Shown here: positions 5,027 to 54,984 of the stretch, piece after piece
Layout: each line of letters starts with the position of its first letter
How positions within the stretch are numbered: position 1 is the stretch's first letter
Assembly (NCBI GenBank): GCA_903845115.1
Contig: CAIMWE010000123.1
Span: 1,345 to 65,344, forward strand
Source: an uncultured Acidobacteriota bacterium
Lineage (GTDB): Bacteria; Acidobacteriota; Thermoanaerobaculia; UBA5066
Length of the DNA: 64,000 nt
Direction of reading: 5' to 3'
Notes under the pieces: generated by a model
The model's database searches: none
The model's input: only the letters and a program-made list of their open reading frames with translations
Told to the model about the DNA's origin: nothing
Made by a program: the position numbers and the translations under genes

Positions 5027-7303
5027 GTGGTGATCGACTCCGAAAGAGGCCGTTCCGCCAGATTTTCCTTTCTCTTCCTCCTCTCGGCAGCCCTGGCCGG
5101 GGCGCTTCCGGCGTCGGCGCAGTCGTCGTTCGAGAGCGACCCGTTCGGCGCCCGCTTCCGGGAACGGTCCTCGTTCGACCTGAAGTTCCGCCTCCCCGAG
5201 AAGGGAGGGTCGGTCAAGGTCACGGTTCCCGAGGGAGAGGGGGGAAGGCAGACCCTGGTCTCGGAGAACGTCTGGGACGCCGAGGCGCCGCCGGGGAAGT
5301 TCGTCACGGTCGAGTACCAGGACATCAAGCTGAGAGCGCGGAAGATCCACGCCGACTACGGTCGGTACGTGGTGATCGCCGAGGGAGACGTCGAGTTCGA
5401 GCAGGGGGCGACCCGGATGCGGGGGAGCCGCCTCGACCTCGACCTGAACGACAAGACCGGCGTCGTGACCGACGGGGACGTCGAGATGGAAGGGGGACTC
5501 CACCTCCGGGGCGACATGCTCGCCAAGGTGGGGCCCCGGTCGTTCACGATGAGCGGCGCGACGCTGACCTCCTGCGACGGGGACAAGCCGGCCTGGCAGT
5601 TCGACTTCTCGTCGGGCCGGGCGACCCTGGAGGAGTACGCGTACCTCTCTCACGTCGTCTTCCGCCTCGGGGGAATCCCGCTCCTGTACACCCCGTACAT
5701 CCTCTGGCCCGCGATGCAGAACCGGACGTCGGGGTTCCTGATCCCGGCCATCGGCTACAGCAGCCAGCGGGGCGGATTCCTCGGCCTCGCCTACTTCTTC
5801 GCGCTGGGGCGGTCGGCCGACGCCACGCTGACCACGGAGAACTACACGAACGGGACCTTCGGCCTCGGGGCCGAGTTCCGGGCGAAGCCGTCGAAGGGGA
5901 CCACCTTCGAGGGAACGTACTTCAGGGTGAACGCGAATGACTCCAACCCCGACCTGGCAGGCTGGGGCTGGAACACGAGGGGGAAGCTCGTCTCGAGCGA
6001 CCTCGCCCCGAACGTCCGCGCCGTCGTCTCGTGGCTCGATTTTTCCAGCCTCGACTTCTTCCAGAACTACTCGCGGGACTTCACCCTCAGCTCCACCCGC
6101 AGCATCAAGTCGGAGGCGTTCGTGACGTGGAGCGTCGACCCCGTCTCGCTCAATTTCCGGCTCGACCACGAGCGGACGATCTTCGACTCGACCGGCGCGT
6201 ACGACGTCGTGACCGAGCGGATGCCCGTGCTGGAGATGCGCCTCCGGCCGACTCCCCTCCTGGGGCAGAACGTCTTCGTGGAGCTGAGCGGCCAGGCCGG
6301 ACAGCTCCACCTGGACCGCGGGCTGGGGCAGCCCGTCGGCACGTACGGCCGTTTCGACCTCTATCCCAAGGTCTCGGTCCCCCTCTCGCCGATCCCGTGG
6401 CTCTCGGTGCAGGCCGACGCCGGAGCGCGGGCCACCTGGTGGGGCAACTCGATCGACCCAGCGAACCCGTCCGCGTTCGACGGCGAGGCGTACACCCGCA
6501 GGCTCGCGCAGGTCGGGGTCCAGGTGACGGGGCCCTCGTTCTCCAGGATCTTCGAGACGACGCTGGGGCCGTTCACGAAGCTCAAGCACATCATCGAGCC
6601 CCGCATCGACTACCAGTACATGACCGACCCGCCCGACCTCGCCAGGGCTCCGCTCTTCGACGAGATCGACACCGTCAGCCCGGATCACTCGGTCAAGTAC
6701 GCGCTGGTCCAGCGGCTCCTCGGGAAGGGGAAGCAGGGGGGCTCGCGGGAGATCGCCTCGCTCGAGATCTCGAGGACGTACTACTTCCGGCTCCCCGACT
6801 ACGGGGCCGCCCCGGTCACCGGACTGACGAAGAGCTCGCCTGTCGACACCATCCTCCGCGTCAACCCCACCGCGAACTTCAACGTGGACGCGCGGGCGAC
6901 CTGGGACCCGATCGCCGCGCAGATCACCGCGGCCAGTCTCTCCGCGAACCTCAACGCGAAGGACAAGATGCTGTCGCTCTCCTACTTCGAGACCAACCCC
7001 ACCGCCGCGACCTGCACTCCCACGCCCGACGTCCCCTGCGTCTCCACTCAGATCCGGATCTTCGGGGGAATGCCGATCATCCCGAAGCGGCTCCGCCTCG
7101 ACCTCCAGACGAACTACGACCTCTCGCTCTCCAAGCTGCTCGAGTTCCGGACGCTCCTCACGCTGGAGGCCTCCTGCTACAAGATCCTCTTCGAGTACCG
7201 GGACCTGAGGCTCGGCACGACGGTCCCGTCCCGCGACATCCGGATCGGCCTGAACCTCAAGAACATCGGCAGCTTCCTCGACTTCCCGATCTCCCTCCCG
7301 TGA
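5027..7303 (+). CDS. lptD: LPS-assembly outer-membrane protein LptD (OstA family)
   Basis: 758 aa with an N-terminal signal peptide, an OstA N-terminal-like region (HADYGRYVVIAEGDVEFEQGATRMRGSRLDLDLN) and a long beta-barrel C-terminal region. Confidence 0.75.
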   Translation: MVIDSERGRSARFSFLFLLSAALAGALPASAQSSFESDPFGARFRERSSFDLKFRLPEKGGSVKVTVPEGEGGRQTLVSENVWDAEAPPGKFVTVEYQDIKLRARKIHADYGRYVVIAEGDVEFEQGATRMRGSRLDLDLNDKTGVVTDGDVEMEGGLHLRGDMLAKVGPRSFTMSGATLTSCDGDKPAWQFDFSSGRATLEEYAYLSHVVFRLGGIPLLYTPYILWPAMQNRTSGFLIPAIGYSSQRGGFLGLAYFFALGRSADATLTTENYTNGTFGLGAEFRAKPSKGTTFEGTYFRVNANDSNPDLAGWGWNTRGKLVSSDLAPNVRAVVSWLDFSSLDFFQNYSRDFTLSSTRSIKSEAFVTWSVDPVSLNFRLDHERTIFDSTGAYDVVTERMPVLEMRLRPTPLLGQNVFVELSGQAGQLHLDRGLGQPVGTYGRFDLYPKVSVPLSPIPWLSVQADAGARATWWGNSIDPANPSAFDGEAYTRRLAQVGVQVTGPSFSRIFETTLGPFTKLKHIIEPRIDYQYMTDPPDLARAPLFDEIDTVSPDHSVKYALVQRLLGKGKQGGSREIASLEISRTYYFRLPDYGAAPVTGLTKSSPVDTILRVNPTANFNVDARATWDPIAAQITAASLSANLNAKDKMLSLSYFETNPTAATCTPTPDVPCVSTQIRIFGGMPIIPKRLRLDLQTNYDLSLSKLLEFRTLLTLEASCYKILFEYRDLRLGTTVPSRDIRIGLNLKNIGSFLDFPISLP

Positions 7304-7358
7304 CGCCCGGAGCGCGGCGCCTCTCGCCCGTTCCGGGGGCTGCTAAACTCCGCCCCTC

Positions 7359-8444
7359 GTGAAGGGACTCATTCTCTCCGGCGGGAAGGGCACGCGCCTC
7401 AGGCCGCTCACCTACACCTCCGCCAAGCAGCTCGTCCCGGTGGCGAACAAGCCGGTCCTCTTCTACGGCATCGAGTCGCTCGTGTCGGCCGGGATCCGGG
7501 AGATCGGCATCGTCGTGGGGGACACCCACGCCGAGATCGAGGCCGCGGTGGGCGACGGCTCGCGCTTCGGGGCGAGGGTCACCTACATTCCCCAGGACGC
7601 CCCGCGCGGGCTGGCGCACGCGGTCCTCATCGCCGAGCCGTTCCTCCGCGGATCGCGGTTCGTCATGTACCTCGGCGACAACCTCCTGCAGCGGGGGATC
7701 ACCGCCCTCGTCGAGGAGTACCTGCAGCTCGGAGTCGACTGCGAGATCCTGCTGACCCGGGTCCCGAACCCCTCCTCGTTCGGGGTGGCGGAGCTGGACG
7801 CGACGGGGCGCGTGGCGCGCCTCGTGGAGAAGCCGAAGGAGCCTCGGTCCGACCTCGCGCTGGTCGGCGTCTACCTCTTCAACGAGACCGTCTTCGACGC
7901 GGTGAAGGCGATCCAGCCTTCGCCCCGCGGGGAGCTGGAGATCACCGACGCGATCCAGTGGCTCGTCGACCACGGCCGGAGCGTCCACGCCCACCTCGTC
8001 TCGGGGTGGTGGAAGGACACCGGCAAGGCCGAGGACATGCTGGAGGCGAACCGGACCGTCCTGGACGGCCTGGAGGACCACCGCGGGACCGCCACGGTCG
8101 ACTCGTCGAGCCGCGTCGAGGGGAAGGTCGTCTTCGAGGGGCCGCCCGGATCGGTCGTCCTCGTCGACTCCGTCGTCCGGGGGCCCGCCGTGATCGGAGA
8201 AGGGAGCCGCATCGAGCGGAGCTTCGTCGGCCCGTACACCGCGATCGCGGCCGGCTGCCGGCTGAACCGCGTGGAGATCGAAAACTCGATCGTCTGGGAG
8301 GGGTCGACCCTCGAGGACGTCTCGCTCAGGATCTCGGACTCGCTGATCGGGCGCGGCGTCGTGATCCGGCGCGACCCGGAGCGCAAGCCGAAGGCCCACC
8401 GCTTCCTCGTGGGGGATGCCTCCGAGGTCGGCATCGGCGAGTGA
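7359..8444 (+). CDS. Glucose-1-phosphate thymidylyltransferase, long form with a C-terminal left-handed beta-helix
   Basis: MKGLILSGGKGTRLRPLTYTSAKQLVPVANKPVLFYGIE is the sugar-nucleotidyltransferase signature. The C-terminus has hexapeptide repeats. Confidence 0.8.
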   Translation: MKGLILSGGKGTRLRPLTYTSAKQLVPVANKPVLFYGIESLVSAGIREIGIVVGDTHAEIEAAVGDGSRFGARVTYIPQDAPRGLAHAVLIAEPFLRGSRFVMYLGDNLLQRGITALVEEYLQLGVDCEILLTRVPNPSSFGVAELDATGRVARLVEKPKEPRSDLALVGVYLFNETVFDAVKAIQPSPRGELEITDAIQWLVDHGRSVHAHLVSGWWKDTGKAEDMLEANRTVLDGLEDHRGTATVDSSSRVEGKVVFEGPPGSVVLVDSVVRGPAVIGEGSRIERSFVGPYTAIAAGCRLNRVEIENSIVWEGSTLEDVSLRISDSLIGRGVVIRRDPERKPKAHRFLVGDASEVGIGE

Positions 8445-9310
8445 GAGCGCTGATCCTGGGCTCCCGGGGGATGCTGGGGCGCGAGCTCGCGGCGGAGTTC
8501 CCGGGTGCGCTGGGTCTCGACCTTCCCGACCTCGACATCCGCGACGAGGCCGCGGTCCGCGCGGTGCTGGCCGCCGAGAGGCCCGCGCTCGTCCTGAACG
8601 CCGCCGCCGACACGCGGGTCGACCTCGCGGAGAGCGACGGGGCCCACCTGGCCGTGAACGACGCCGCGGTCGGGACCCTGGCCGCCGCCTGCCGCGACGG
8701 CGGAATCCCCCTCGCCCACGTCTCCACCGACTACGTCTTCTCGGGGCGCGGCACCCGGCCCTGGCGCGAGGACGACCCCGTCGACCCCGTGAACGCGTAC
8801 GGCCGGGGAAAGCTGGGGGGCGAGCGGCGGTTCCTGGAGTCGGGCGTGAAGGGGTTCGTCGTCCGGACGTCGTGGCTCTTCGGGAACCACGGTCCCAACT
8901 TCGTCGACGCCATCCTCAAACAGGCGGAGGCGGGGAAGAGCGAGCTGAACGTCGTGGCCGACCAGGAAGGCCGCCCGACCTACGCCCCCGATCTCGCCCG
9001 GGCGATCCGCCTCCTCTTCGAGAAAGAGGCGAGCGGCCTCTTCCACTTCGCGAACTCCGGGGTGACCACCTGGTACACCTTCGCCCGCGAGGCGCTCCGG
9101 CTCGCCCTATTCGAAGGGGTCGTCGTCCGCCCCTGCACGACGGCCGATTTCCCGCGTCCGGCGCGGCGCCCGGCGTACTCGGCCCTCGACACGTCTCTCT
9201 ACGAGCGGACGGTCGGCGAGCGGCCCCGCCCCTACGTCGAGGCGCTCGAGGCGTACGTGGCGGCCCGGGCGGCGAGGCTCTCCCGGATCGCGCCGACGAC
9301 CGCGGCCTGA
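8441..9310 (+). CDS. rfbD: dTDP-4-dehydrorhamnose reductase
   Basis: GTG start overlapping the upstream stop (GTGA). N-terminal ILGSRGMLG Rossmann motif, then STDYVFSG...Y..K, the RmlD pattern. Confidence 0.8.
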   Translation: MRALILGSRGMLGRELAAEFPGALGLDLPDLDIRDEAAVRAVLAAERPALVLNAAADTRVDLAESDGAHLAVNDAAVGTLAAACRDGGIPLAHVSTDYVFSGRGTRPWREDDPVDPVNAYGRGKLGGERRFLESGVKGFVVRTSWLFGNHGPNFVDAILKQAEAGKSELNVVADQEGRPTYAPDLARAIRLLFEKEASGLFHFANSGVTTWYTFAREALRLALFEGVVVRPCTTADFPRPARRPAYSALDTSLYERTVGERPRPYVEALEAYVAARAARLSRIAPTTAA

Positions 9311-9344
9311 CCAGGGCGCCTCGACGACGGCGCGGCAAGGGGGA

Positions 9345-10673
9345 ATGACGGTCGTGGGCGTGGAGGGACTCCGCAAGGCGGTTCACATCGGGATGGCAGG
9401 CTTCGCCTTCCTCCTCCCGGCCCTGGGCTGGAGAGGGGGCGCGGCCGCGGCGATCGTCGCCATCGCGTTCAACGGACTCGTCCTTCCCCGGGTCGCGGGC
9501 CGGTCGCTCTCCCGCGAGAGCGACGCGGGGCGGCGCGTCCCGGTCGGCATCGCCCTCTACCCGGTGACCGTCCTCGTCCTGATCCTCCTCTTCCGGGACC
9601 ACCTCGAGATCGCGGCGGCCGGGTGGGGGTTCCTCGCCTTCGGGGACGGGTTCGCCACCCTGGTGGGGCGGGCGGCAGGGGGCATCCCGCTCCCGTGGAA
9701 CGGCGCGAAGTCGATCGCCGGGACGGCGGCGTACCTCCTCTGGGGAGGCGCGGGGGCCACGCTCCTCTACCGTTTCGTCTCCGGCCGTCCCCTCCGGGTG
9801 GTCGAGGTAGCGGTGATCGCGTTCGCGGCCCTGGCCGGGGCGATGCTGGAATCGCTCCCCTCCGAGATCGACGACAACCTCCTGCCCCCCGTCGGCGGAG
9901 CCCTGGTGCTGGCGCTCGCGCTCGAGGCCTTTCACGCGGCCCGGTTCCCGCCGGAGTGGCCGGCGCAGCTCCTGACGGCGCTGGCGTGGAACACGGCGCT
10001 CCCGCTCCTGGCCGTGGCCCTCGGGGTCGTCCGGGTCTCGGGGGCGATCGCGGGAGGGATCTGCGGAGCCCTGATCCTGGCCTTCGGGGGCCTCGCCTCC
10101 TACGGACTCCTCTGGGCGTTCTTCGCGATCGGAACGGCCGCGACGAGGTTCGGAAGGAGGCGGAAGGAGGCGATCGGCAAGGCCGAGGGCTCCGGCGGGC
10201 GCCGCGGGGCGGCGAACGTCGCCGCGAACGTCGCCGTTCCCGCCCTCCTCGTCGTGGCCGGCGGCCTTTCGGGAGACCCTGGATTCGCGGCGACGTGCCG
10301 GATGGCGGCCGCGGGCGCGTTCGCCACCGCCGTGATGGACACGGTCGGGACGGAGGTGGGGCAGGTCGTGCAGGGGAAGACCTTCCTCCTGCCGGACTTC
10401 CGGCGGGTCCCTCCGGGCACGGACGGGGCGGTCTCCCTGGCGGGGACGGCCGCGGGCCTGCTCGCCGCGGGCGGGATCGCGATCCTCTTCGTCGTCCTGT
10501 TCCGCCTCCCGTGGAGCGCGGGCGTCGTGGTCGCCGCGGCCGCCTGCGCCGGCACGGTCGTCGAGAGCCTCCTGGGGCGGCACGGGGCGCCGTGGCGAGT
10601 CTCGAACGGACACGTCCTGAACCTCTACAACACGGCGGCCGGGGCGTCGGTCGCGTGGCTCCTGGCCGGCTAG
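9345..10673 (+). CDS. Polytopic membrane protein fusing a VTE5/dolichol-kinase-like CTP-transferase-type domain to a DUF92 (VTE6-like) domain
   Basis: N-terminal half has GDGFATLVGRAAGG...GAKSIAGTAAYLL, the CTP_transf_1/dolichol-kinase C-terminal motif. C-terminal half has the DUF92/TIGR00297-like pattern (RRGAANVAANVAVPALL...TAVMDTVGTEVGQ). Multiple predicted TM helices. Confidence 0.5.
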   Translation: MTVVGVEGLRKAVHIGMAGFAFLLPALGWRGGAAAAIVAIAFNGLVLPRVAGRSLSRESDAGRRVPVGIALYPVTVLVLILLFRDHLEIAAAGWGFLAFGDGFATLVGRAAGGIPLPWNGAKSIAGTAAYLLWGGAGATLLYRFVSGRPLRVVEVAVIAFAALAGAMLESLPSEIDDNLLPPVGGALVLALALEAFHAARFPPEWPAQLLTALAWNTALPLLAVALGVVRVSGAIAGGICGALILAFGGLASYGLLWAFFAIGTAATRFGRRRKEAIGKAEGSGGRRGAANVAANVAVPALLVVAGGLSGDPGFAATCRMAAAGAFATAVMDTVGTEVGQVVQGKTFLLPDFRRVPPGTDGAVSLAGTAAGLLAAGGIAILFVVLFRLPWSAGVVVAAAACAGTVVESLLGRHGAPWRVSNGHVLNLYNTAAGASVAWLLAG

Positions 10674-10697
10674 GCTGGTGAGGCGAGAATCGGAGAG

Positions 10698-11699
10698 ATG
10701 AGCCGACCCCTGACCGTTGCCGTCGCGCTGAAGCTGACCCGCCCCTTCACGCTTCTTCCACCCCTGTTCGGGATCCTGTCCGGGGCGATCTGCGCCTTCG
10801 GGAGCGCCCACAACCCGGATCCGGCCAGGGCGGTGACGGCGTCGGTCGTCCTCGTCGTCGCCCTCGGGTCGCTCTGCGCCTCTCTGCTCAACGCCGCTTC
10901 CAACGTCCTGAACCAGATCACCGACCTGGAGCTCGACCGGATCAACAAGCCAGACCGGCCCCTCTGCACCGGCGAGGCGTCCCCGGGTTCGGCCTGGGCG
11001 CTGACGGGGGTCCTCTACGGCCTGGCCTTCCTGCCGACGTGGTGGATCGTGGTGCCCCCCGTCGACGGCTGGCTCGCCCGGGCCCTGGCGCCCCTCGGGA
11101 CCCACGAATGCTTCCTCCTCTTCGGAGGCGGCTTTCTCGCAACCCTCGTCTACTCGCTCCCGGAGCTCGGGCGGACGAAGCGCTTCGGGATGTGGGCGAA
11201 CGTCACGATCGCCATCCCTCGCGGCTGCCTCCTGAAGGTGGCCGGCTGGACGATGGTCGCCTCGTCGCGGACCCTCGAGCCGTGGGTGATCGGGTCGATC
11301 TTCGGCCTCTTCCTCCTCGGAGCCGCCACGACGAAGGACTTCTCGGACGTCGAGGGGGACCGCGCCGGCGGCTGCCGGACCCTGCCGATCCTCCACGGGA
11401 ACCGGAAGGCGGTCCGGATCATCTCCCCCTTCTTCGTCCTGCCGTGGCTCTGCCTCGTCGTCCTGGCGTTCGTCCCCGATCCGTTCGCGCCGGTTCCGGG
11501 CGCCAGGCTGCTGACCGGCAATTCGACCCTTCTCGTCCTGCTCGGGACCGTCCTCGCGGCGTGGGGCGCCTACACGGTCCGCCTCCTCTCGAGGAACCCC
11601 GAGGAGCTCTCGACGACCGAGAACCACCCGTCGTGGACCCACATGTACCTGATGATGATGGCGGCGCAGGTCGGGTTCGCGGTCGCGTACGTCTTCTGA
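10698..11699 (+). CDS. UbiA-family aromatic/glyceryl prenyltransferase (DGGGPS/ChlG-like subfamily)
   Basis: NQITDLELDRINKPDRPL (first Asp-rich motif, DRINKPxRP type) and KDFSDVEGDRAGGCRTLPI (second motif). 8-9 predicted TM helices. Confidence 0.8.
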   Translation: MSRPLTVAVALKLTRPFTLLPPLFGILSGAICAFGSAHNPDPARAVTASVVLVVALGSLCASLLNAASNVLNQITDLELDRINKPDRPLCTGEASPGSAWALTGVLYGLAFLPTWWIVVPPVDGWLARALAPLGTHECFLLFGGGFLATLVYSLPELGRTKRFGMWANVTIAIPRGCLLKVAGWTMVASSRTLEPWVIGSIFGLFLLGAATTKDFSDVEGDRAGGCRTLPILHGNRKAVRIISPFFVLPWLCLVVLAFVPDPFAPVPGARLLTGNSTLLVLLGTVLAAWGAYTVRLLSRNPEELSTTENHPSWTHMYLMMMAAQVGFAVAYVF

Positions 11700-11766
11700 C
11701 GCCGCGCTCCCTGGCCCGGGCCCCGGGTCACTCCGCGGGCGGGAATCAGATACGATCGGCCCGATG

Positions 11767-13780
11767 GTGCGTCCTGAAGTGAAAGCGCGAGGATTGGGTG
11801 GAAAGGGGAATCGCGTTGGAGCGAGCTGTACGTCTACAGCGGGTGAAAGTCCCGTCCAGAAAGCGCCGGAGCATCTGGTAGTCGGCCCCAGGCAGCGGGA
11901 GAGATCCCGATGACCCGAGCGGGGCGCCGAAAGCCTCCGAACAGGAGGGAGCGACGACGCGGGCTGCAACATGAAGTGAAGCCTGCCGCCTCGACAGATT
12001 TACAGCGAGGGAGCCGAGCCGAGCATTTCACGGCGAAGGCCATGCGCAGGGCGCAGGGGACCGGAAGAGAAAGCGCCGTGGGTTCCTCCGGGGTATGGGG
12101 CGCGGCACGTGTCGAAGGAGACGTACGGAACAGGAGAGACCCGTCTGCGCGGCCCGAGTCAGGGCAAAGTGGGCCGTATAAGCCGAAGGTGAAGTCGGCC
12201 GCTGCGCAGCGGGAGTCCGAGGGGATCGAAGTACCGAAGAAGGCGGCGACGAATAACGCTGCCAGAGGGAAGGGTCCCTGCGGTGGTCAAGCCGGAAAAG
12301 CAGGTAAGCGCGAGGGCATGTCCGGGACAGCCCGGACCAACGACCCCGATGAGCACAAGCCGATCGAGAAAGTGCGACGACTGCGGATCCGGCTGTGGAG
12401 GGCTGCCAAGCGGCAGCCGGAGCGGCGATTCCATGCCCTATATGACCGTATCCACAGGAGTGACGTTCTGTGGGAGGCGTGGAGACGAGTACGGAGCAAG
12501 AAAGGATGTGCGGGCGTCGACGCCGAGACGCTCGTACAGATCGAGCAGCGCGGGGTCGAAGGCTTCCTCGAGGAGCTTCGGACCGAGCTGCGCGTAGGCG
12601 AGTACCTGCCGAAGGCGGTTCTGCGGCGGTACGTGGACAAGGCCGATGGAAGGAAGCGGCCGCTTGGGATACCTGCGGTGAGGGACAGGGTCGTCCAGAT
12701 GGCGGCGACGCTGATACTGGAGCCGATCTTCGAGGCGGACTTCGAGGACGACTCGTATGGATTTCGGCCGAAGCGCAGCGGGACGGATGCGCTGGAGGCT
12801 CTGCGCAAGCGAGCGTATGCGGGCGGGGGCAGCCACGTATTTGATGCCGACATCCGGGACTACTTCGGGAGTCTCGACCGGGAGCTACTCCTCTCGTTTG
12901 TGGGAGAGCGGATCTCGGACCGACGGGTACTCAAGCTGATCCGGCTCTGGCTGGAGGCCGGGGTGATGGAAGATGGAGAGGTGACCGAGCCGAAGCTCGG
13001 GACGCCGCAAGGGGGCGTCATCTCACCGCTCTTGTCGAACATCTATCTCGACCGGCTCGACACGGTATGGGAACGGCGGCACCGGGACCTGGGGCTGCTG
13101 GTTCGTTATGCTGACGACTTTGTCGTGATGTGTGACACGGCGGAGGAGTGCGCGCGAGCGGCGCGGGAGATCGGGACGATCCTCCGCGAGCTGAAGCTGG
13201 AGCTGCACCCGGAAAAGACGAGGCAGGTCGACCTGACCGATGGCAAGGGCGGGTTCGACTTCCTCGGCTGCCATCTGCGGAAGAAAGTGTCGGGCCGCTT
13301 GCTGGAGAAAGGGGTACGGAGGTACTACCTGAGCCGGTGGCCCTCGGCGCGGAGCATGAAGCGGGTGAGACAGCGCGTGAAGGACGAAACCGACAGCAGA
13401 AAGAACGGCGTGAAAGACGTGAGAAAGCCAATCGAACGTCTGAATCCGATCCTTCGTGGCTGGGGGGCGTACTTCCGTACCGGGAATGCTGCTCAGAAGC
13501 TCAACCAGCTCGACGGCTACGTCTGGAGACGACTCCACCGCTTCAAGGTGAGGCGGAAAGGGCGAAACCTCCGGGCGGGTGAGGCCAGGGCTTGGTCGAG
13601 GGACTTCTTCTCGGGCCATGGACTCCACCGTCTGCGCGGCACTGTCCGCTATCCGGAGACTGCGTAATGCGACCCTTCGAGAGACCACCGGTAAGCCGTG
13701 TGCGGGAAAACCGCAAGCACGGTTTGAAAGGGGGTCTTGTGACTTCAGGAGCGGCCTTGCCGCGAAAGAATTGAACAGGA
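11767..13780 (+). mobile_element. Bacterial group II intron, intergenic, about 2.0 kb; the 3' boundary is approximate
   Basis: A GUGCG consensus 5' end at about 11767. A domain V-like 34-nt hairpin AAGCCGUGUGCGGGAAAACCGCAAGCACGGUUUG at about 13693-13726, followed by about 50 nt of domain VI-like sequence. An RT/maturase ORF sits inside (domain IV). Confidence 0.75.
12318..13667 (+). CDS. Group II intron-encoded reverse transcriptase/maturase (no endonuclease domain)
   Basis: RT blocks: RPLGIPAVRDRVVQ, FGFRPKRS, LGTPQGGVISPLLSNIYL, the YADDFVV catalytic motif and maturase domain X (RGWGAYFRTG). It ends without an HNH/En domain. Start taken at MSGTARTND... Confidence 0.85.
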   Translation: MSGTARTNDPDEHKPIEKVRRLRIRLWRAAKRQPERRFHALYDRIHRSDVLWEAWRRVRSKKGCAGVDAETLVQIEQRGVEGFLEELRTELRVGEYLPKAVLRRYVDKADGRKRPLGIPAVRDRVVQMAATLILEPIFEADFEDDSYGFRPKRSGTDALEALRKRAYAGGGSHVFDADIRDYFGSLDRELLLSFVGERISDRRVLKLIRLWLEAGVMEDGEVTEPKLGTPQGGVISPLLSNIYLDRLDTVWERRHRDLGLLVRYADDFVVMCDTAEECARAAREIGTILRELKLELHPEKTRQVDLTDGKGGFDFLGCHLRKKVSGRLLEKGVRRYYLSRWPSARSMKRVRQRVKDETDSRKNGVKDVRKPIERLNPILRGWGAYFRTGNAAQKLNQLDGYVWRRLHRFKVRRKGRNLRAGEARAWSRDFFSGHGLHRLRGTVRYPETA

Positions 13781-13787
13781 TCTACCA

Positions 13788-14333
13788 ATGAACCCCGATG
13801 AGATGGCGGCCCGCCCGACTCTGGACTTCCCGCCGCTCTCCGTGCGATGGGAGGGGCTGGTCGTCGTCCTGGACGCGACGACGCTCAACACCGTCGTCCG
13901 GAAGGCGCTCGCGAAGGTGCCCGAGATCCGGAAATTCCTGATCGAGCCGGAGTACGGCCGCCTCGGCGTGACCATGACGGTGAAGAAGAGAGGCGTGCCG
14001 GTCCCGCTCCGGTCTCACTTCACGTCGATCCGGCTGAAGGACGGCTTCCTCGGCTTTCACGTCGACGACCTGGTCGCGTTCGGCTTCGTCCCGATCCCCA
14101 ACTGGCTCCTCCGGCGGATCGCGCTCCGGCTGCCGTACCGCTCGGTCTTCTTCTACCCGGACGTGCGGGTGGTCGTGATCGACCTCAACGCCTTCCTCCC
14201 CGAGGACCTGATCGTGAACGTCCGCGACGTCCTCTGCGAGAACGGCGAGATGCGGTTCGTCTTCGGCCCCAGCCAGTACCGTCTCGACACGCTGGTCGAC
14301 GGGATCGGCAAGGACCCGTTCGCGGAGGAGTGA
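13788..14333 (+). CDS. Hypothetical protein (181 aa), no recognisable motif
   Basis: Clean ORF immediately downstream of the intron 3' end, with codon usage matching its neighbours. Confidence 0.45.
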   Translation: MNPDEMAARPTLDFPPLSVRWEGLVVVLDATTLNTVVRKALAKVPEIRKFLIEPEYGRLGVTMTVKKRGVPVPLRSHFTSIRLKDGFLGFHVDDLVAFGFVPIPNWLLRRIALRLPYRSVFFYPDVRVVVIDLNAFLPEDLIVNVRDVLCENGEMRFVFGPSQYRLDTLVDGIGKDPFAEE

Positions 14334-43630: not shown

Positions 43631-44874
43631 GACCCGAAGACCCCTTCCCACTTCGCCACGACCACCGCCGCCACGCAGTTGCCGGCGAGGTTGATCGAGG
43701 TACGGGCCATGTCCATCAGCTCGTCGACGGCGAGGATCATCGCGACTCCCGCCTCGCCCGGCAGGTTGAACGCCGCGCAGCCGGACACGATGATGACGAG
43801 CGAGGCCCTGGGCACCGCGGCCACCCCCTTCGTCGTGAGCATGAAGGTGAGCATCATCAGGACCTGCTCGGTCCAGGTCATGTGCCGTCCGGCCGCCTGC
43901 GCGATCGTGAGCGAGGCGAGCGCGATGTAGAGCGTGGAGCCGTCCAGGTTGAAGCTGTAGCCGGCCGGGAGGACGAAGCCGGCCACGCTCTTCGGGACTC
44001 CGAACTCCACGATCCGCTCGAGGGCGCGCGGGAGGGCCGCCTCGGAGGACGCGGTCGAGAAGGCGATCATGAAGGGCTCCCGGATCGCCCGGAAGAACTT
44101 GAGGACCGGGACCTTCGCCAGCTTCAGGGCGGGGACCATCACGATCAGGACGAAGATGACCAGGGAGAGGTAGAGCGACCCGACGAGCTTCACGTAGCTC
44201 CGGAGGACCCCGAGGCCGTGGTGGGACACGGCGCCCGCCATCGCGCCGAAGACGCCGAGCGGGGTCAGCGCCATCACGTAGTCGGTCAGCTTGAACAGGA
44301 CCGCGACGGCCGACTCGAAGAAGGCGACGAACGGCTCGGACCGCTTCCCGACGTGGGCCGCAGCGATTCCGAGGAGGGTGGCGAAGATGACGATCTGGAG
44401 GATGTCCTGCCTCGCCATCGCGTCGATGACGTTCGAGGGGAAGAGGTGGAGGAGGGTCTCCACGAGCGTCTTCGGCTTCGCGAGGTTGGCCTCGCCGGTC
44501 ATCGGGAGCTTCAGGTCGAGGCCGGGCTTGACGACGTTGGCCATCACGAGGCCGATGACGAGGGCGATCGTGGTGGCGACCTCGAAGTAGACGAGGGCCT
44601 TCACGCCCATCCTTCCCACGGCCTTGATGTCGCCCGTCTTGCCGATGCCGAGGACGATGGTCGCGAAGATCAGCGGGACCACCAGCATCTTGATGAGGCT
44701 GATGAACGCCTTCGAGAGGAAACGGAACGTCTCGTAGGCCGCCGGGTACTGTTCCGCGGGGAGGCGGTCGCCGAGGACGACGCCGAGCACCAGCGCGTAC
44801 ATGATCAACGCCGTCCCCGACAGGAACGCGGAGCGGCCGCGCGGAGCGGCCGCGGGCGGGGCGCCGCCGGTCAT
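43534..44874 (-). CDS. Dicarboxylate/amino acid:cation symporter (DAACS family, GltP/DctA-like)
   Basis: Typical DAACS TM layout and motifs (e.g. AAFNLPGEAGVAMILAVDELMDMARTSINL). Start set at MTGG..., overlapping the dedA stop (ATGA). The last about 30 aa (AEGESLRAS repeats) come from the tandem repeat element. Confidence 0.8.
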   Translation of the reverse strand: MTGGAPPAAAPRGRSAFLSGTALIMYALVLGVVLGDRLPAEQYPAAYETFRFLSKAFISLIKMLVVPLIFATIVLGIGKTGDIKAVGRMGVKALVYFEVATTIALVIGLVMANVVKPGLDLKLPMTGEANLAKPKTLVETLLHLFPSNVIDAMARQDILQIVIFATLLGIAAAHVGKRSEPFVAFFESAVAVLFKLTDYVMALTPLGVFGAMAGAVSHHGLGVLRSYVKLVGSLYLSLVIFVLIVMVPALKLAKVPVLKFFRAIREPFMIAFSTASSEAALPRALERIVEFGVPKSVAGFVLPAGYSFNLDGSTLYIALASLTIAQAAGRHMTWTEQVLMMLTFMLTTKGVAAVPRASLVIIVSGCAAFNLPGEAGVAMILAVDELMDMARTSINLAGNCVAAVVVAKWEGVFGSERDATRLAEGESLRASAEGESLRASTEGSQY

Positions 44875-45527
44875 GCGGGGGGCTGCGGGGCCGGTTTCTC
44901 GCGCCAGGTCTTCCAGGCCTCCCACGCGATGGGGAGGACCGAGACGACGATGATCGCGAGGATCACGACGGAAAAGTTCCGCTTGACGACCGGGATGTTC
45001 CCGAAGAAGTAGCCGGAGAAGACGAACAGCCCGACCCAGAGGACACCGCCGATGACGTTGTAGGCCAGGAAGACCGGGTAGCTCATCGACCCGACTCCCG
45101 CCACGAAGGGCGCGAACGTCCGGACGATCGGGACGAAGCGGGCCAGGATGATCGTCGACCGGCCGTACTTCTCGTAGAACGTGTGGGTCTTCTGGAGGTG
45201 CTCCCTCTTGAGGAACCGGACGTGGCCGCTGAAGGCCCGCGGCCCGATCCGGCTCCCGATCCAGTAGTTCAGGGAGTCGCCGAGGATCGCGGCGGCGGCC
45301 AGGAGGAGGAAGACCGTGAAGAGGTTCAGGGAGCCGAGCGCGGCGAACGTCCCCGCAGCGAAGAGAAGGGAGTCGCCGGGGAGGAACGGCGTGACGACCA
45401 GCCCCGTCTCGCAGAAGACGATCAGGAAGAGGATCGCGTTCGTCCAGGCCCCGTAGTCGCGAAGGACGTCGGCCAGGTGCTTGTCCAGGTGGAGGAAGAT
45501 GTCGACGAACTGCTTGAGAAGGTCCAT
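44871..45527 (-). CDS. DedA/SNARE-associated (TVP38) family membrane protein
   Basis: 218 aa with FLPGDSLLFAAG, GSRIG and ILARFVPIVRTFAPFVAGV, the DedA signature. Confidence 0.8.
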   Translation of the reverse strand: MDLLKQFVDIFLHLDKHLADVLRDYGAWTNAILFLIVFCETGLVVTPFLPGDSLLFAAGTFAALGSLNLFTVFLLLAAAAILGDSLNYWIGSRIGPRAFSGHVRFLKREHLQKTHTFYEKYGRSTIILARFVPIVRTFAPFVAGVGSMSYPVFLAYNVIGGVLWVGLFVFSGYFFGNIPVVKRNFSVVILAIIVVSVLPIAWEAWKTWREKPAPQPPA

Positions 45528-45608
45528 GCGGCTCCTAGAGGGCAGGAGATTAGCAGGGCCGGAGGCGGTCCGGAGGGCGGTTCGAGAGGTTCCGAGGATA
45601 ATGGATCG

Positions 45609-47795
45609 ATGCTGCGGTTCGAGGACATCCTCGACCAGGTGGAGAGCTACCTTCCCAAGGTGGACGAGGGGCTGCTCCGGAAGGCGTACGTCTTCTCGGC
45701 GCACGCCCACCGGAACCAGCTCCGGTCCTCGGGCGAGCCGTACCTGATCCACCCCCTCAACGTGGCGATGATCCTCGCCAGGATGAAGCTGGACGAGACC
45801 TCCATCGCGACGGGCCTCCTCCACGACGTCCTGGAGGACTCCGACACGACGAAGGAGCGGCTGGCGGAGCTGTTCGGGCCGGAGGTGGCGCACCTCGTGG
45901 ACGGCGTCACGAAGATCGGGAGGTACGCGTTCACCTCCCGGGAGGCGCAGCAGGCCGAGACGTTCCGGAAGATGCTCCTGGCGATGACGGACGACGTGCG
46001 CGTCATCCTGGTGAAGCTCGCGGACCGCCTCCACAACATGCAGACCCTGAAGTTCCTCGCCGAGCCGAAGCAGCGCGCGGTCGCCGCCGAGACGCTCGAG
46101 ATCTACGCCCCGCTCGCGAACCGGCTGGGGATGGGGAAGATGAAGGGAGAGCTGGAGGACCTGGCGTTCGGCTACCTCTACCCGGAGGAGTTCTCGGTCC
46201 TCACGGCCGCGGTGGACGAACGGATCCGGGCTTCGGCGGCGTCGGTCGAGCGGCTGCGCCGCATGCTCCTGGAGCAGACCGAGCGGGCGGGGGTCCGGGC
46301 CGAGGTGACGGGCCGGGTGAAGAGGTACTGGTCGATCCGGCAGAAGCTGATCCGGCAGGCGATCCCGCTGGACCAGCTCTACGACATCCTCGCGTTCCGG
46401 ATCCTGGTCGACTCGATGAAGGACTGCTACGCGGTCCTGGGCATCGTGCACCAGGCCTGGCGGCCGGTCCCGGGACGGATCAAGGACTACATCGCGATGC
46501 CCAAGCAGAACTTCTACCAGGCGCTCCACACGACGGTCGTCCCGGAAGGGACTCCGCCGTTCGAGATCCAGATCCGGACGAAGGAGATGGACTCGGTCGC
46601 CGAGAACGGGATCGCGGCGCACTGGAAGTACAAGGAAGGGCGGCTCGACCCGAGGGCCGACGAGGCCCGGATCGCGCTCCTCCGGCAGATCGTCGAGACC
46701 ACGCGCGAGGTCTCCGACCCGCGCGAGTTCCTCTCGTCCCTGAAGATCGACCTCTACCCGGACGAGGTCTACATCTTCTCGCCCAAGGGGGCGGTGTTCG
46801 CGTTCCCGCGGGGGGCCACCCCGGTCGACTTCGCCTACCGGGTCCACACCGACGTCGGCCACCGCTGCACGGGAGCGCGGGTGAACGGGCGCCTCGTCCC
46901 GCTGAAGACGCTGCTCCGGAACGGCGACATCGTCGAGATCATGACGGCGCCGGTCGCGCAGCCTTCCCGGGACTGGCTGACCTTCGTCGTGACGTCCCGC
47001 GCGAAGAACAAGATCCGGGCGTTCATCCAGGCGGCCGAGAAGGAGAAGTCGATCGAGATCGGCCGTCGGCTCCTGGAGAAGGAGCTGCGGAAGTTCCAGA
47101 AGCGCCTCCCGAAGCTCCTGGAGGCGCGGGCGTTCGACCCCTTCCTGCAGGAATTCGGGGTGGCCAAGGCGGAGGACCTGCTCGCCGACATCGGCTTCGG
47201 GAAGACCTCCCCGAAGCTGGTGGTGGCGAGGGTCTTCCCGCCGGCGGCAGACGGGACGACCGGGGAGGCGGCCGACAAGGGGCCCTCCCCGCTGCAGAAG
47301 GCGGTCCGCAAGATCCTGCCGTTCCGGTCGGCGGGGATCCGGGTCACGGGCGAGCACGACCTGATGGCGACGCTCGCGACCTGCTGCCGGCCGGTCCCGG
47401 GAGACGAGATCACCGGCTACGTGACGCGGGGGCGGGGCGTGTCGGTCCACTCGACCGCCTGCCCGAACGTCAAGAACCTGCTGTTCGACCCGAGCCGGGA
47501 GATCGAGGTCGAGTGGGAGCGCGCCGACGACGCGTCCTTCACGGTCGAGCTGGAGATCCGGACGGAGGACCGGCCGGGCCTCCTCGCCAAGATCACGCAG
47601 GTCATCTCCGCGGCGAACTCGAACATCCAGTCGATCCAGGCGAGGACGCTTCCCGACGGGACCGCCACGATCGACAGCTACGTGACGACTCCCGACCGGA
47701 AGCACCTGGACAAGCTCCTGGTGACGCTCCGCAGCCTTCCCGGCGTCAACCAGGTCCGCCGGAAATTCAACAGCTCCCGCCCGGTCACGGCCTGA
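45609..47795 (+). CDS. Bifunctional (p)ppGpp synthetase/hydrolase RelA/SpoT
   Basis: HD hydrolase domain (HRNQLRSSGEPYLIHPL, HD motif in LLHDVLEDSD), synthetase domain (RVKRYWSIRQKL, DILAFRILV), TGS and a C-terminal ACT domain. Confidence 0.9.
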   Translation: MLRFEDILDQVESYLPKVDEGLLRKAYVFSAHAHRNQLRSSGEPYLIHPLNVAMILARMKLDETSIATGLLHDVLEDSDTTKERLAELFGPEVAHLVDGVTKIGRYAFTSREAQQAETFRKMLLAMTDDVRVILVKLADRLHNMQTLKFLAEPKQRAVAAETLEIYAPLANRLGMGKMKGELEDLAFGYLYPEEFSVLTAAVDERIRASAASVERLRRMLLEQTERAGVRAEVTGRVKRYWSIRQKLIRQAIPLDQLYDILAFRILVDSMKDCYAVLGIVHQAWRPVPGRIKDYIAMPKQNFYQALHTTVVPEGTPPFEIQIRTKEMDSVAENGIAAHWKYKEGRLDPRADEARIALLRQIVETTREVSDPREFLSSLKIDLYPDEVYIFSPKGAVFAFPRGATPVDFAYRVHTDVGHRCTGARVNGRLVPLKTLLRNGDIVEIMTAPVAQPSRDWLTFVVTSRAKNKIRAFIQAAEKEKSIEIGRRLLEKELRKFQKRLPKLLEARAFDPFLQEFGVAKAEDLLADIGFGKTSPKLVVARVFPPAADGTTGEAADKGPSPLQKAVRKILPFRSAGIRVTGEHDLMATLATCCRPVPGDEITGYVTRGRGVSVHSTACPNVKNLLFDPSREIEVEWERADDASFTVELEIRTEDRPGLLAKITQVISAANSNIQSIQARTLPDGTATIDSYVTTPDRKHLDKLLVTLRSLPGVNQVRRKFNSSRPVTA

Positions 47796-47888: not shown

Positions 47889-48083
47889 CTACCGGACGAC
47901 CTTCGTCACCTTCCCCGAGCGGATGCAGCGAGTGCAGACCTTCATCCGCCTGGAGCCACCGGGGGTGGCGGCGCGGACGGGCCTCAGGTTCGGCTTGAAC
48001 TGCCGGAGGGAGACATTGTTGGCGTGACTGACCTTCCGACCGGCAACCGGGGACTTTCCGCAAACCGCGCAACACTGGGCCAT
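47889..48083 (-). CDS. rpmB: 50S ribosomal protein L28
   Basis: 64 aa. C.VCGKSPVAG.KVSHANN...R.F.PNL pattern. Confidence 0.8.
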   Translation of the reverse strand: MAQCCAVCGKSPVAGRKVSHANNVSLRQFKPNLRPVRAATPGGSRRMKVCTRCIRSGKVTKVVR

Positions 48084-48221
48084 GGTCTCGTCTTCCTTCT
48101 TTTCCCTTTTGGGATCTCCGACCCTCGGAGCCGGGTGGGCCAGATTCGACCCTTCCCGAACCCTGACTTATAACCCCTTATTTGATTCAATGCAAGGGAT
48201 TTCTGGGTCATTTTCTGATCC

Positions 48222-48252
48222 TTGACACCAGGTGGGGTGAGAGCGCGAAAAT
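48222..48252 (+). promoter_or_regulatory. Candidate sigma70-like promoter for pilM (TTGACA -35, weak GAAAAT -10 at 19-nt spacing)
   Basis: Perfect -35 hexamer in a locally AT-enriched divergent region between rpmB and pilM. The -10 is weak. Confidence 0.25.
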
Positions 48253-48331
48253 GACGTATCAGTCCAGGCTGGATTCGATTGCCTCGACGTATGCCCTGCG
48301 GTTCCGAAGCGTAAGGGAGGGAGACCGTACC

Positions 48332-49387: not shown

Positions 49388-49397
49388 GAGGCGCGCG

Positions 49398-54871: not shown

Positions 54872-54984
54872 GCGTGAGCAAGAGCGAGGACCAAGGATTG
54901 AACGCGATGCGAGCCACCACCCCTTCCCCGCGGGACCCCCGGCCGATCCGGGAAGCCGCGGACTCCCGTCACGAGGTGAAACCG

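What the first reader, a model, noticed from the sequence alone, without database searches (positions are those of the whole stretch)
9345..11699. Fused VTE5-like/VTE6-like polyprenol kinase next to a DGGGPS/ChlG-type UbiA prenyltransferase: possible prenol-salvage or ether/isoprenoid-lipid module
The 442-aa membrane protein combines a dolichol-kinase/VTE5-like CTP-transferase-type domain (GDGFATLVGRAAGG...GAKSIAGTAAYLL) with a DUF92 domain (the family of plant VTE6 phytyl-phosphate kinase). Together they could convert a free prenol to its diphosphate in two steps. The adjacent UbiA enzyme has the DRINKPxRP-type first motif typical of digeranylgeranylglyceryl-phosphate synthase and chlorophyll-synthase-like members. 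A kinase fusion plus a prenyltransferase operon is not a described bacterial pathway and could relate to isoprenoid ether lipid or prenylquinone synthesis.
Basis: inference. Interest (0 to 1): 0.55.

Follow-up and report, generated by a model that had tools for sequence, protein, structure and literature searches.

The report
Fused prenol kinase beside UbiA prenyltransferase
An acidobacterial (Thermoanaerobaculia) genome carries a conserved gene pair, a two-domain membrane enzyme predicted to turn a free isoprenoid alcohol into its diphosphate and a prenyltransferase of an uncharacterised subfamily, which is a sound but untested candidate for bacterial prenol salvage rather than a new kind of system.

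Summary
ORF 9345-10673 (442 aa) has a DUF92/VTE6-family C-terminal half (Pfam E=8e-40). Its N-terminal half gets no direct Pfam hit. By profile comparison and motifs it belongs to the CTP-transferase superfamily on the polyprenol-kinase side, not to CdsA. ORF 10698-11699 is a UbiA prenyltransferase closest to DGGGPS and (bacterio)chlorophyll synthase, but it falls far below every curated family cutoff.

The fusion is the dominant architecture of this N-domain: 76 of 99 distant representatives carry DUF92. It was already described in archaea (Makarova 2015).

In Thermoanaerobaculia the order LptD-(RmlA)-RmlD-kinase-UbiA-p181 is conserved. UbiA follows the kinase in 40 of 50 loci, usually within 12 nt, and also in a distant lineage. 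An orphan 180-aa protein (p181) follows UbiA in 34 of 34 loci.

Most likely the fused kinase makes a prenyl diphosphate from a free prenol and the UbiA enzyme transfers it to an unknown acceptor. This is the VTE5/VTE6-to-UbiA logic of phototrophs, here in a non-phototroph.

The main rival is that the kinase supplies polyprenyl-phosphate glycan carriers, because its most widely conserved neighbours are LptD and nucleotide-sugar enzymes. An ether-lipid or prenylquinone product is not shown. Interest is moderate.

The parts
9345..10673 (+). Fused two-domain membrane kinase candidate ('KIN', 442 aa; a GTG at 9354 gives the 439-aa form held in databases)
   Evidence: ORF; GC3 0.90. Full-length homologues at 53-85% identity. 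AlphaFold2 model with pLDDT 91, all-helical.
9345..9959 (+). N-terminal domain (aa 1-205): CTP-transferase superfamily, polyprenol-kinase-like (Sec59/VTE5/PolK type)
   Evidence: No direct Pfam or NCBIfam hit. Invariant E7, R10-K11-x2-H14, G100-D101, N119-x2-K122, E169, D177-N178, P182. hhalign against E. coli CdsA gives E=3e-5. The N-domain of relative P0381 hits PF01148 at E=7e-5. JGI names a stand-alone relative 'dolichol kinase'. The R-K-x-x-H clamp is described for PfPolK.
9996..10577 (+). C-terminal DUF92 / COG1836 domain (aa 218-411), the family of plant VTE6 phytyl-phosphate kinase
   Evidence: PF01940 E=7.8e-40. TIGR00297 scores 123.9 bits, below its cutoff of 205.85. Invariant D332, E337, E407. 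Weak homology to the N-domain, E=2.7e-4.
10698..11699 (+). UbiA-superfamily prenyltransferase of an unclassified subfamily near DGGGPS and ChlG/BchG
   Evidence: PF01040 E=7.4e-34. Best NCBIfam scores are ChlG 93 bits (cutoff 313), PRK12884 92 (269), BchG 74 (212), DGGGPS 67 (296), HPT 67 (226). Profile against PDB: DGGGPS 6m31 2e-18, ChlG 9sau 8e-17. Both Asp-rich motifs are invariant: N72-Q-x2-D76-x3-D80-R-I-N-K-P-x-R-P and K213-D-F-x-D217-x2-G-D221.
13788..14333 (+). 'p181': orphan soluble 181-aa protein that always follows the UbiA gene
   Evidence: Follows UbiA in 34 of 34 loci. 125 homologues, all of the same lineage, none with a Pfam domain. The AlphaFold2 model is only moderate (pLDDT 66, beta-rich) and no PDB match is significant; the best are Bet v1/START-like at E about 0.1.
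11767..13799 (+). Group II intron interrupting the UbiA-p181 spacer; not part of the module's function
   Evidence: Rfam RF02003 at 11837-11974 (72 bits) and RF00029 at 13691-13799 (44.6 bits). RT/maturase ORF, called as 12318-13667 in public assemblies. GTGCG at 11767. Absent from the 84%-identical locus L005.
8441..9310 (+). RmlD, dTDP-4-dehydrorhamnose reductase: the conserved upstream neighbour
   Evidence: TIGR01214 scores 254 bits against a cutoff of 224. Directly upstream of KIN in 44 of 51 loci, often abutting or overlapping it by a few nt on envelope coordinates.
7359..8444 (+). RmlA, glucose-1-phosphate thymidylyltransferase (context)
   Evidence: TIGR01208 scores 449 bits against a cutoff of 320.
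5027..7303 (+). LptD, outer-membrane LPS assembly protein (context; conserved upstream of the block)
   Evidence: PF04453 and PF19838. Present upstream in nearly all related loci.

Best explanation
The 442-aa protein is a bifunctional prenol kinase. Its N-terminal domain is polyprenol-kinase-like (Sec59/VTE5/PolK type) and phosphorylates a free isoprenoid alcohol to the monophosphate, probably with CTP. Its C-terminal DUF92 domain (VTE6 type) adds the second phosphate, giving an allylic or phytyl-type prenyl diphosphate inside the membrane.

The translationally adjacent UbiA-family enzyme uses that diphosphate as prenyl donor and attaches the chain to an acceptor that is still unknown. The orphan protein p181 is an accessory factor of the UbiA step.

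Shown here: the domain families, the conservation of the fusion, the intact catalytic motifs and the conserved gene order. Inferred: both kinase activities, the chain length, the nucleotide used, the coupling to the UbiA enzyme and the acceptor.
For: 1. The DUF92 assignment is strong. DUF92 = COG1836 = the VTE6 family.
2. The N-domain belongs to the CTP_transf_1 superfamily but lacks the CdsA signature. It carries the R-K-x-x-H clamp of prenol kinases. A stand-alone relative is named dolichol kinase by JGI.
3. The fusion is under selection. 76 of 99 distant representatives of the N-domain carry DUF92. Makarova 2015 found the same architecture in archaea and predicted a kinase step in isoprenoid metabolism.
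4. UbiA follows KIN in 40 of 50 Thermoanaerobaculia loci, with a gap of -3 to +12 nt in 35 of them. Loci without it form one subclade, which suggests a secondary loss or move.
5. A lineage whose KIN is only about 38% identical keeps KIN-UbiA with a 4-nt overlap, and its UbiA is of the same subfamily (49% identity, same motifs).
6. UbiA enzymes need prenyl diphosphate donors. The nearest families (ChlG/BchG, DGGGPS, HPT) use C20 donors. In plants and cyanobacteria VTE5 and VTE6 feed exactly such enzymes (established knowledge).
7. Both Asp-rich motifs of the UbiA enzyme are invariant, and it is more conserved than KIN (64-92% against 53-85% identity).
Against: - No activity has been measured for any bacterial member of either kinase domain.
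- The N-domain assignment rests on weak profile matches, and no solved structure is detected by sequence or by Foldseek.
- KIN persists without an adjacent UbiA in one Thermoanaerobaculia subclade and in other phyla. It therefore has a role that does not need this UbiA enzyme.
- The neighbours of KIN that are conserved across lineages are LptD and nucleotide-sugar enzymes, and in archaea UppS. That points to glycan-carrier lipids.
- Upstream synteny extends to unrelated housekeeping genes (thiolase, CoA-transferase), so part of the gene order may simply be inherited.
- The acceptor is unknown, and no other isoprenoid gene was found among the window ORFs scanned.
Confidence: 0.5

Rival explanations
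1. Carrier-lipid supply for envelope glycans. KIN phosphorylates long-chain polyprenol (undecaprenol-like) to regenerate polyprenyl phosphate for LPS, O-antigen or rhamnose-containing glycan assembly. The DUF92 domain has a related, still unknown role on the carrier. The UbiA gene sits next to it but works on its own supply of prenyl diphosphate.
For: - LptD-(RmlA)-RmlD-KIN is the most conserved arrangement. RmlD lies directly upstream in 44 of 51 loci, often abutting or overlapping KIN by a few nt.
- RmlA and RmlD pass their NCBIfam equivalog cutoffs.
- Other lineages have LptD-SDR-KIN or epimerase-KIN with different nucleotide-sugar-type SDRs.
- One representative (P0279) carries an SDR fragment fused to the N-domain.
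- In archaea the only conserved neighbour of DUF92 is UppS, the maker of the glycan-carrier polyprenol.
- JGI names a stand-alone relative 'dolichol kinase'.
Against: - A second phosphorylation is not needed for a monophosphate carrier, yet the DUF92 fusion is the rule.
- The KIN-UbiA junction is as tight as the RmlD-KIN junction, and it recurs in a distant lineage.
- The synteny also includes unrelated genes (thiolase, CoA-transferase), so order alone is weak evidence.
- The SDR type changes between lineages.
Confidence: 0.25
2. No functional coupling. The adjacency of KIN, UbiA and p181 is gene order inherited within Acidobacteriota. KIN and UbiA act in separate isoprenoid processes, for example a housekeeping prenyl-phosphate kinase and an unrelated membrane prenyltransferase fed by de novo GGPP.
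For: - Long-range synteny of unrelated housekeeping genes runs across the same loci.
- UbiA and p181 are absent next to KIN in 10 of 50 loci, and in L063, L064 and L068-L071.
Against: - Gaps of -3 to +12 nt in 35 loci indicate co-translation or one operon.
- The pair is retained in a lineage with only about 38% KIN identity, where the other neighbours differ.
- The biochemical fit, a diphosphate producer next to a diphosphate user, is specific.
Confidence: 0.15
3. Archaeal-type ether-lipid module. The UbiA enzyme is a true DGGGPS, and the CTP-transferase-superfamily protein acts as a cytidylyltransferase (CarS- or CdsA-like) that activates the diether product, not as a kinase.
For: - The first UbiA motif, DLELDRINKPDRPL, is nearly that of M. 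jannaschii DGGGPS, and DGGGPS is the best PDB match by profile.
- Both KIN domains are remote relatives of cytidylyltransferases.
- DGGGPS-like genes of unknown role are widespread in bacteria.
Against: - Every DGGGPS model is missed by a wide margin (67 against 296 bits, 54 against 353), and ChlG/BchG is equally close.
- No CarS or CdsA model hit for the window protein, and no CarS hit for 99 relatives. The CdsA catalytic C-terminal signature is absent.
- No GGGPS or G1P dehydrogenase was found among the window ORFs scanned or in the called flanks of related loci.
Confidence: 0.07

Closest known systems
Plant and cyanobacterial phytol salvage: VTE5 (phytol kinase) plus VTE6 (phytyl-phosphate kinase), feeding the UbiA-family enzymes VTE2/HPT and chlorophyll synthase
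   Same: The same two protein families are present in the same order of action. The product is a prenyl diphosphate used by a UbiA-family transferase of the ChlG/HPT/DGGGPS branch.
   Different: Here the two kinases are one polypeptide, and kinase and transferase form one operon. The host is a non-phototrophic acidobacterial class. The transferase is neither HPT nor ChlG by curated cutoffs. No tocopherol or chlorophyll genes lie nearby.
Archaeal Sec59-like + arCOG02245 (COG1836/DUF92) fusion proteins, e.g. Mbar_A3310 (Makarova et al. 2015, PMC5898192)
   Same: The domain order is identical: an N-terminal domain of about 210 aa related to dolichol kinase, then DUF92. Aspartates are conserved in both halves. 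Both are predicted kinases of isoprenoid metabolism.
   Different: The host is bacterial. The archaeal genes are linked to UppS, whereas these are linked to LptD/RmlD upstream and to UbiA/p181 downstream.
Digeranylgeranylglyceryl-phosphate synthase (DGGGPS, PDB 6m31) and (bacterio)chlorophyll synthase ChlG/BchG (PDB 9sau)
   Same: These are the best structural-database and annotated matches: profile E of 2e-18 and 8e-17, BLASTP of 6e-14 and 4e-17. They share the NxxxDxxxDxxN(K/E)PxRP and KDFxDxxGD motifs.
   Different: Identity is only 28-32%. Scores reach about a quarter to a third of the family cutoffs. The subfamily has motifs of its own: NQ instead of ND in motif 1, RTKRxGxWANxTIAIPRGxLLKVAGW, and a C-terminal ENHPSWxHMY. 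No chlorophyllide or GGGP pathway is in evidence.
CDP-diacylglycerol synthase CdsA (Pfam PF01148)
   Same: The core motif (G/A)D(G/S)xAxxxGxxxG...(S/T)PxK(S/T)WxG...ES is shared with the N-domain, hhalign E=3e-5.
   Different: The CdsA C-terminal catalytic signature is missing and is replaced by ESLPSExDDNxxxP. There is no CdsA model hit.

Membership tests
DUF92 / COG1836 / VTE6 family (Pfam PF01940) | Domain HMM match above the Pfam gathering score | tested here: met
   137.2 bits against a cutoff of 27.5, E=7.8e-40, residues 218-411.
DUF92 / COG1836 / VTE6 family (Pfam PF01940) | Full-length equivalence to stand-alone TIGR00297 proteins | tested here: not met
   123.9 bits against a cutoff of 205.85. 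The domain is part of a fusion and is divergent.
DUF92 / COG1836 / VTE6 family (Pfam PF01940) | Prenyl-phosphate kinase activity (shown only for VTE6) | not testable with these tools
   Needs an enzyme assay. Acidic residues D332, E337 and E407 are invariant.
Polyprenol kinases (Sec59/DolK, VTE5, FOLK, PolK; COG0170, within the Pfam PF01148 superfamily) | HMM or profile match to the family | tested here: inconclusive
   The window protein has no hit even at E=10. 4 of 99 relatives hit PF01148, the best being the N-domain of P0381 at 23.2 bits against 24. hhalign of the N-domain profile against E. coli CdsA gives E=3e-5. No polyprenol-kinase reference sequence was available for a direct test.
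Polyprenol kinases (Sec59/DolK, VTE5, FOLK, PolK; COG0170, within the Pfam PF01148 superfamily) | N-terminal Arg-Lys-x-x-His clamp, as described for PfPolK | tested here: met
   R10, K11 and H14 are invariant in 55 sequences. In 99 distant relatives R10 and H14 stay at 90% or more, while K11 falls below that level. The motif is described in PMC10849223.
CdsA proper (CDP-diacylglycerol synthase) | C-terminal signature KRxxGxKDxGxxxPGHGGxxDRxD and a match to a CdsA model | tested here: not met
   The signature is absent from the sequence. No NCBIfam or Pfam hit.
CarS (CDP-archaeol synthase) | Match to a CarS family model or to the solved CarS structure | tested here: not met
   No such family among the hits of the window protein or of 99 relatives. 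No PDB sequence match at E up to 10.
UbiA prenyltransferase superfamily (PF01040) | HMM match plus the two Asp-rich motifs | tested here: met
   117.6 bits against a cutoff of 34.2. D76/D80 and D214/D217/D221 are invariant in 30 sequences.
DGGGPS | Score above the curated equivalog cutoff | tested here: not met
   67.3 against 296, 53.7 against 353, 39.5 against 278.
DGGGPS | GGGPS/PcrB and G1P dehydrogenase present in the same genome | not tested
   Only 64 kb of the genome and flanks of up to 8 kb in relatives were available; none was seen there.
Chlorophyll / bacteriochlorophyll synthase (ChlG/BchG) | Score above the curated cutoff | tested here: not met
   93 against 313 (NF005742), 74.4 against 212.3 (TIGR01476), 52.3 against 436 (TIGR02056).
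Homogentisate phytyltransferase (HPT/VTE2) | Score above the curated cutoff | tested here: not met
   67 against 226.
MenA / UbiA / MqnP quinone prenyltransferases | Score above the curated cutoff, or closest relationship | tested here: not met
   31 bits or less against cutoffs of 275-430. BLASTP gives MenA 2e-5 and UbiA 9e-4, against BchG 4e-17.
Decaprenyl-phosphate phosphoribosyltransferase (Rv3806c type) | Any match to the family | tested here: not met
   Not among the 25 NCBIfam hits or the PDB profile hits at E up to 1.
Group II intron (side feature) | Rfam matches above gathering score plus an RT/maturase ORF | tested here: met
   RF02003 scores 72 against 49 and RF00029 scores 44.6 against 40. 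RVT_1 and GIIM domains are present.

The most novel reading that the evidence does not exclude
A class of non-phototrophic Acidobacteriota salvages free C20 prenols, either phytol or geranylgeraniol from decaying chlorophyll in sediments or from its own lipid turnover. One fused enzyme diphosphorylates them. A previously unrecognised UbiA subfamily, helped by the orphan protein p181, attaches them to a glycerol-phosphate or aromatic acceptor. The result would be a bacterial isoprenoid ether lipid or tocopherol/prenylquinone-like lipid. Its genes sit in an outer-membrane biogenesis block, so it may be destined for the envelope.
Probability: 0.15. Interest if true: 0.75.

Novelty: new variant of a known kind. 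Interest (0 to 1): 0.42.

Why it matters
Genes for the two-step prenol salvage pathway (prenol to prenyl phosphate to prenyl diphosphate) have been proven only in plants and cyanobacteria. A review calls the pathway 'missing' in bacteria and animals (PMC9782597).

A naturally fused enzyme is widespread in bacteria (300 cluster representatives at E<=1e-30, mostly fused). It gives a compact candidate for testing both steps at once, and a possible one-gene tool for feeding prenols into engineered terpenoid or archaeal-lipid pathways.

The attached UbiA subfamily and p181 are highly conserved and unassigned. Finding their product would add a lipid to the little-known membrane chemistry of Thermoanaerobaculia. 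It could also bear on bacterial sources of isoprenoid lipid biomarkers.

If instead the kinase serves glycan-carrier recycling, it would be a new route to polyprenyl phosphate in diderm bacteria.

Tried and rejected
- Direct Pfam and NCBIfam scans of the N-terminal 211 aa at E=10 found nothing except a spurious LAETG match.
- Profile searches of the kinase alignments (A1, A3) against all PDB sequences gave no hit at E up to 10.
- Foldseek of the pLDDT-91 kinase model against PDB gave only non-significant transporter matches with TM of 0.19 or less, so it was uninformative.
- tblastn of the kinase against plasmids found nothing.
- p181 has no Pfam family even at E=1 across 52 members. Its model is of moderate quality, and the Bet v1/START-like matches are not significant. 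I do not call it a lipid-binding protein.
- The promoter and terminator scan gave nothing above chance.
- The vom Dorp 2015 and PlantSEED 2014 papers, which predicted VTE6 from prokaryotic gene clustering, are not in the library. I recall that they reported COG1836-phytol kinase clustering, but I could not verify this.
- Rejected: CdsA proper, CarS, MenA/UbiA/MqnP, the DPPR-synthase type, and true ChlG/BchG/HPT/DGGGPS membership (see the membership table).
- Rejected: the 1018-aa antisense ORF 8916-11972 as a gene.
Full report
**What is there**

The window is about 70% GC. Its closest relatives are metagenome-assembled genomes labelled Thermoanaerobaculia or Acidobacteriota.

Two same-strand ORFs sit at the stated coordinates, 24 nt apart: 9345-10673 (442 aa) and 10698-11699 (333 aa). 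Both show the third-position GC bias of real genes (0.90 and 0.93). Both have hundreds of full-length homologues.

**The kinase candidate (KIN)**

The C-terminal half (residues 218-411) is an unambiguous DUF92 domain: PF01940, E=7.8e-40. DUF92 corresponds to COG1836, the family of plant VTE6 phytyl-phosphate kinase.

The N-terminal half gave no hit in Pfam or NCBIfam, even at E=10.
- An alignment of 55 homologues shows invariant E7, R10-K11-x-x-H14, G100-D101, N119-x-x-K122, E169, D177-N178 and P182.
- A profile of this domain, searched against 1.84 billion cluster representatives, found 4040 relatives (300 at E<=1e-30).
- Of 99 of the best representatives, 76 also carry DUF92 and 4 touch PF01148, the cytidylyltransferase family. 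From my own recollection of the Pfam entry, PF01148 also includes the dolichol kinase Sec59.
- In one of these (P0381) the PF01148 match lies in the N-domain (residues 63-200, 23.2 bits against a cutoff of 24), with DUF92 at residues 263-458.
- hhalign of the N-domain profile against E. coli CdsA gives E=3e-5. It aligns GDGFATLVG...NxxKSxxG...ES with ADSGAYMFG...SPGKTWQG...TES. The CdsA C-terminal signature ([24 protein letters not shown]) has no counterpart.
- The R-K-x-x-H motif matches the 'charged clamp' Arg29-Lys30-His33 described for the experimentally confirmed prenol kinase PfPolK.
- JGI names a stand-alone relative 'dolichol kinase'.
- The two halves of the protein are weakly homologous to each other, E=2.7e-4. 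Makarova et al. reported the same for archaea.

Conclusion: this is a two-domain member of the CTP-transferase superfamily. It combines a polyprenol-kinase-like domain with a VTE6-like domain, and it is not CdsA and not CarS.

**The fusion is not new**

Makarova et al. 2015 (PMC5898192) described archaeal proteins such as Mbar_A3310 with an N-terminal Sec59-like domain (HHpred 99.85% to COG0170) fused to arCOG02245/COG1836/pfam01940. They noted conserved aspartates in both halves and a genomic link to UppS, and they predicted a kinase step in isoprenoid biosynthesis.

What is shown here is that the same architecture is the rule for this domain in bacteria, including Acidobacteriota and Gemmatimonadota.

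**The UbiA enzyme**

PF01040 matches at E=7.4e-34. The best NCBIfam scores all fall far below their cutoffs:
- ChlG: 93 bits (cutoff 313)
- PRK12884: 92 (269)
- BchG: 74 (212)
- DGGGPS: 67 (296)
- HPT: 67 (226)
- MenA, UbiA, MqnP and CyoE score 31 bits or less, and no DPPR-synthase match appears.

A family profile against PDB sequences ranks DGGGPS 6m31 (2e-18) and chlorophyll synthase 9sau (8e-17) far above AfUbiA and ApUbiA (about 1e-6).

The only annotated plasmid-borne relatives are a purple-bacterial chlG and a haloarchaeal DGGGPS. In a small tree with these and with E. coli UbiA and MenA, the subfamily joins BchG and DGGGPS. BLASTP gives 4e-17 and 6e-14 for those two, against 2e-5 for MenA and 9e-4 for UbiA.

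The subfamily is very conserved (64-92% identity). Both Asp-rich motifs are intact. It also has features of its own: NQ in motif 1, RTKRxGxWANxTIAIPRGxLLKVAGW, and a C-terminal ENHPSWxHMY.

It is therefore an unclassified branch next to DGGGPS, ChlG and HPT. Its acceptor cannot be read from sequence.

**Context**

I fetched 58 related loci from species-representative genomes and mapped the window proteins onto them.
- The order LptD-(RmlA or an unknown gene)-RmlD-KIN-UbiA-p181 is typical.
- UbiA follows KIN in 40 of 50 loci that have enough downstream sequence. The script reported 39; L054 was miscounted because of a frameshift. The gap is -3 to +12 nt in 35 of them.
- The loci without UbiA form one subclade of the KIN tree, which points to a secondary loss or relocation.
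- p181, a 180-aa soluble orphan protein, follows UbiA in 34 of 34 cases. It has no Pfam family and only a moderate model.
- RmlD lies directly upstream of KIN in 44 of 51 loci, often abutting or overlapping it by a few nt on envelope coordinates. RmlA and RmlD pass their equivalog cutoffs.

More distant lineages show the following:
- L065 has LptD, an HpnA-like SDR, KIN and UbiA. Its KIN is about 38% identical and its UbiA 49% identical, of the same subfamily.
- L064 and L070 have LptD-SDR-KIN without UbiA.
- L071 has epimerases followed by KIN.
- A Gemmatimonadota locus has KIN followed by a methyltransferase.
- L063 has KIN followed by a MobA-like nucleotidyltransferase.

The window ORFs scanned by Pfam are housekeeping genes (RuvX, thiolase, CoA-transferase, HflX, pentose-phosphate enzymes, SecDF, RelA, a secretin), and none is an isoprenoid gene. 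About half of the candidate ORFs downstream of 16 kb, including the one at 54760-59160, were not scanned.

**Interpretation**

The most economical reading is prenol to prenyl phosphate to prenyl diphosphate by the fused kinase, followed by prenyl transfer by the UbiA enzyme. This is the known logic of VTE5/VTE6 feeding VTE2 or ChlG, here condensed into an operon in a non-phototroph.

The tight and recurrent KIN-UbiA junction supports this. So does the specific biochemical fit: a second phosphorylation is needed only for prenyl-transfer chemistry.

Against it, KIN has a life without this UbiA enzyme, and its broadest associations are with LptD and nucleotide-sugar genes (with UppS in archaea). 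This keeps a glycan-carrier role alive. Some of the synteny is plainly inherited gene order.

I put 0.5 on the salvage-plus-transfer model, 0.25 on the carrier-lipid model, 0.15 on no coupling and 0.07 on a DGGGPS plus CarS-like ether-lipid module. The last is disfavoured by the missed cutoffs, the absent cytidylyltransferase signature and the lack of GGGPS nearby.

**Verdict**

The finding is a new bacterial variant of a known kind, with an unassigned UbiA subfamily and an orphan partner attached. It is of moderate interest, mainly as a directly testable candidate for the 'missing' bacterial prenol salvage pathway.

Noticed in passing
window 11767-13799 (+): A group II intron of about 2.0 kb lies in the UbiA-p181 spacer on the operon strand, with an RT/maturase ORF at about 12318-13667. 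It starts with GTGCG directly after an ATG (11764-11766). The Rfam domain V/VI match ends at 13799. Splicing would therefore join that ATG in frame to GAG ATG GCG of p181, while the unspliced RNA offers its own ATG at 13788. The intron is absent from the 84%-identical locus L005 but is seen in both gene arrangements shown for this organism's public contigs.
   Followed up: partly
window 13788-14333 (+); 34 related loci: p181 is an orphan family of about 180 aa restricted to this lineage (125 homologues). It always lies immediately downstream of the UbiA gene. It has no Pfam domain. JGI labels two members 'YpmS'. The AlphaFold2 model is beta-rich with pLDDT 66, and its Bet v1/START-like matches are not significant.
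   Followed up: partly
window 5027-9310 (+); L064, L065, L070, L071: KIN lies downstream of LptD and a nucleotide-sugar-type SDR in several lineages. The SDR family changes: true RmlD here and in L064, HpnA-like in L065, GDP-mannose-dehydratase/GalE-like in L070. One database protein (P0279) has an SDR fragment fused to the kinase N-domain. This may be a read-through artefact of overlapping genes or a real fusion.
   Followed up: partly
window 8916-11972 (-): A 1018-aa open reading frame runs antisense to RmlD, KIN and UbiA. It is proline/arginine-rich, which is typical of a spurious ORF in 70% GC DNA, and it is not a gene.
   Followed up: yes
L059 and L060 (both contigs named contig_N in MFD assemblies): LptD, KIN and UbiA are each split over several frames in these two loci. 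These are most likely assembly indel errors rather than pseudogenes.
   Followed up: no
L003/L004 9599-13344: In a 58%-identical relative, the block KIN-UbiA-p181 is followed by a ferredoxin, a HEAT-repeat protein and a Rieske/cytochrome b pair (a quinol-oxidising complex). The window has an aminotransferase there instead, so the link is not conserved.
   Followed up: no
window 44001-46000 and 48001-50000: GC content dips to 0.63-0.67, as in the intron region, against a background of about 0.71. The cause was not examined (RelA/SpoT lies at 44805-47795).
   Followed up: no
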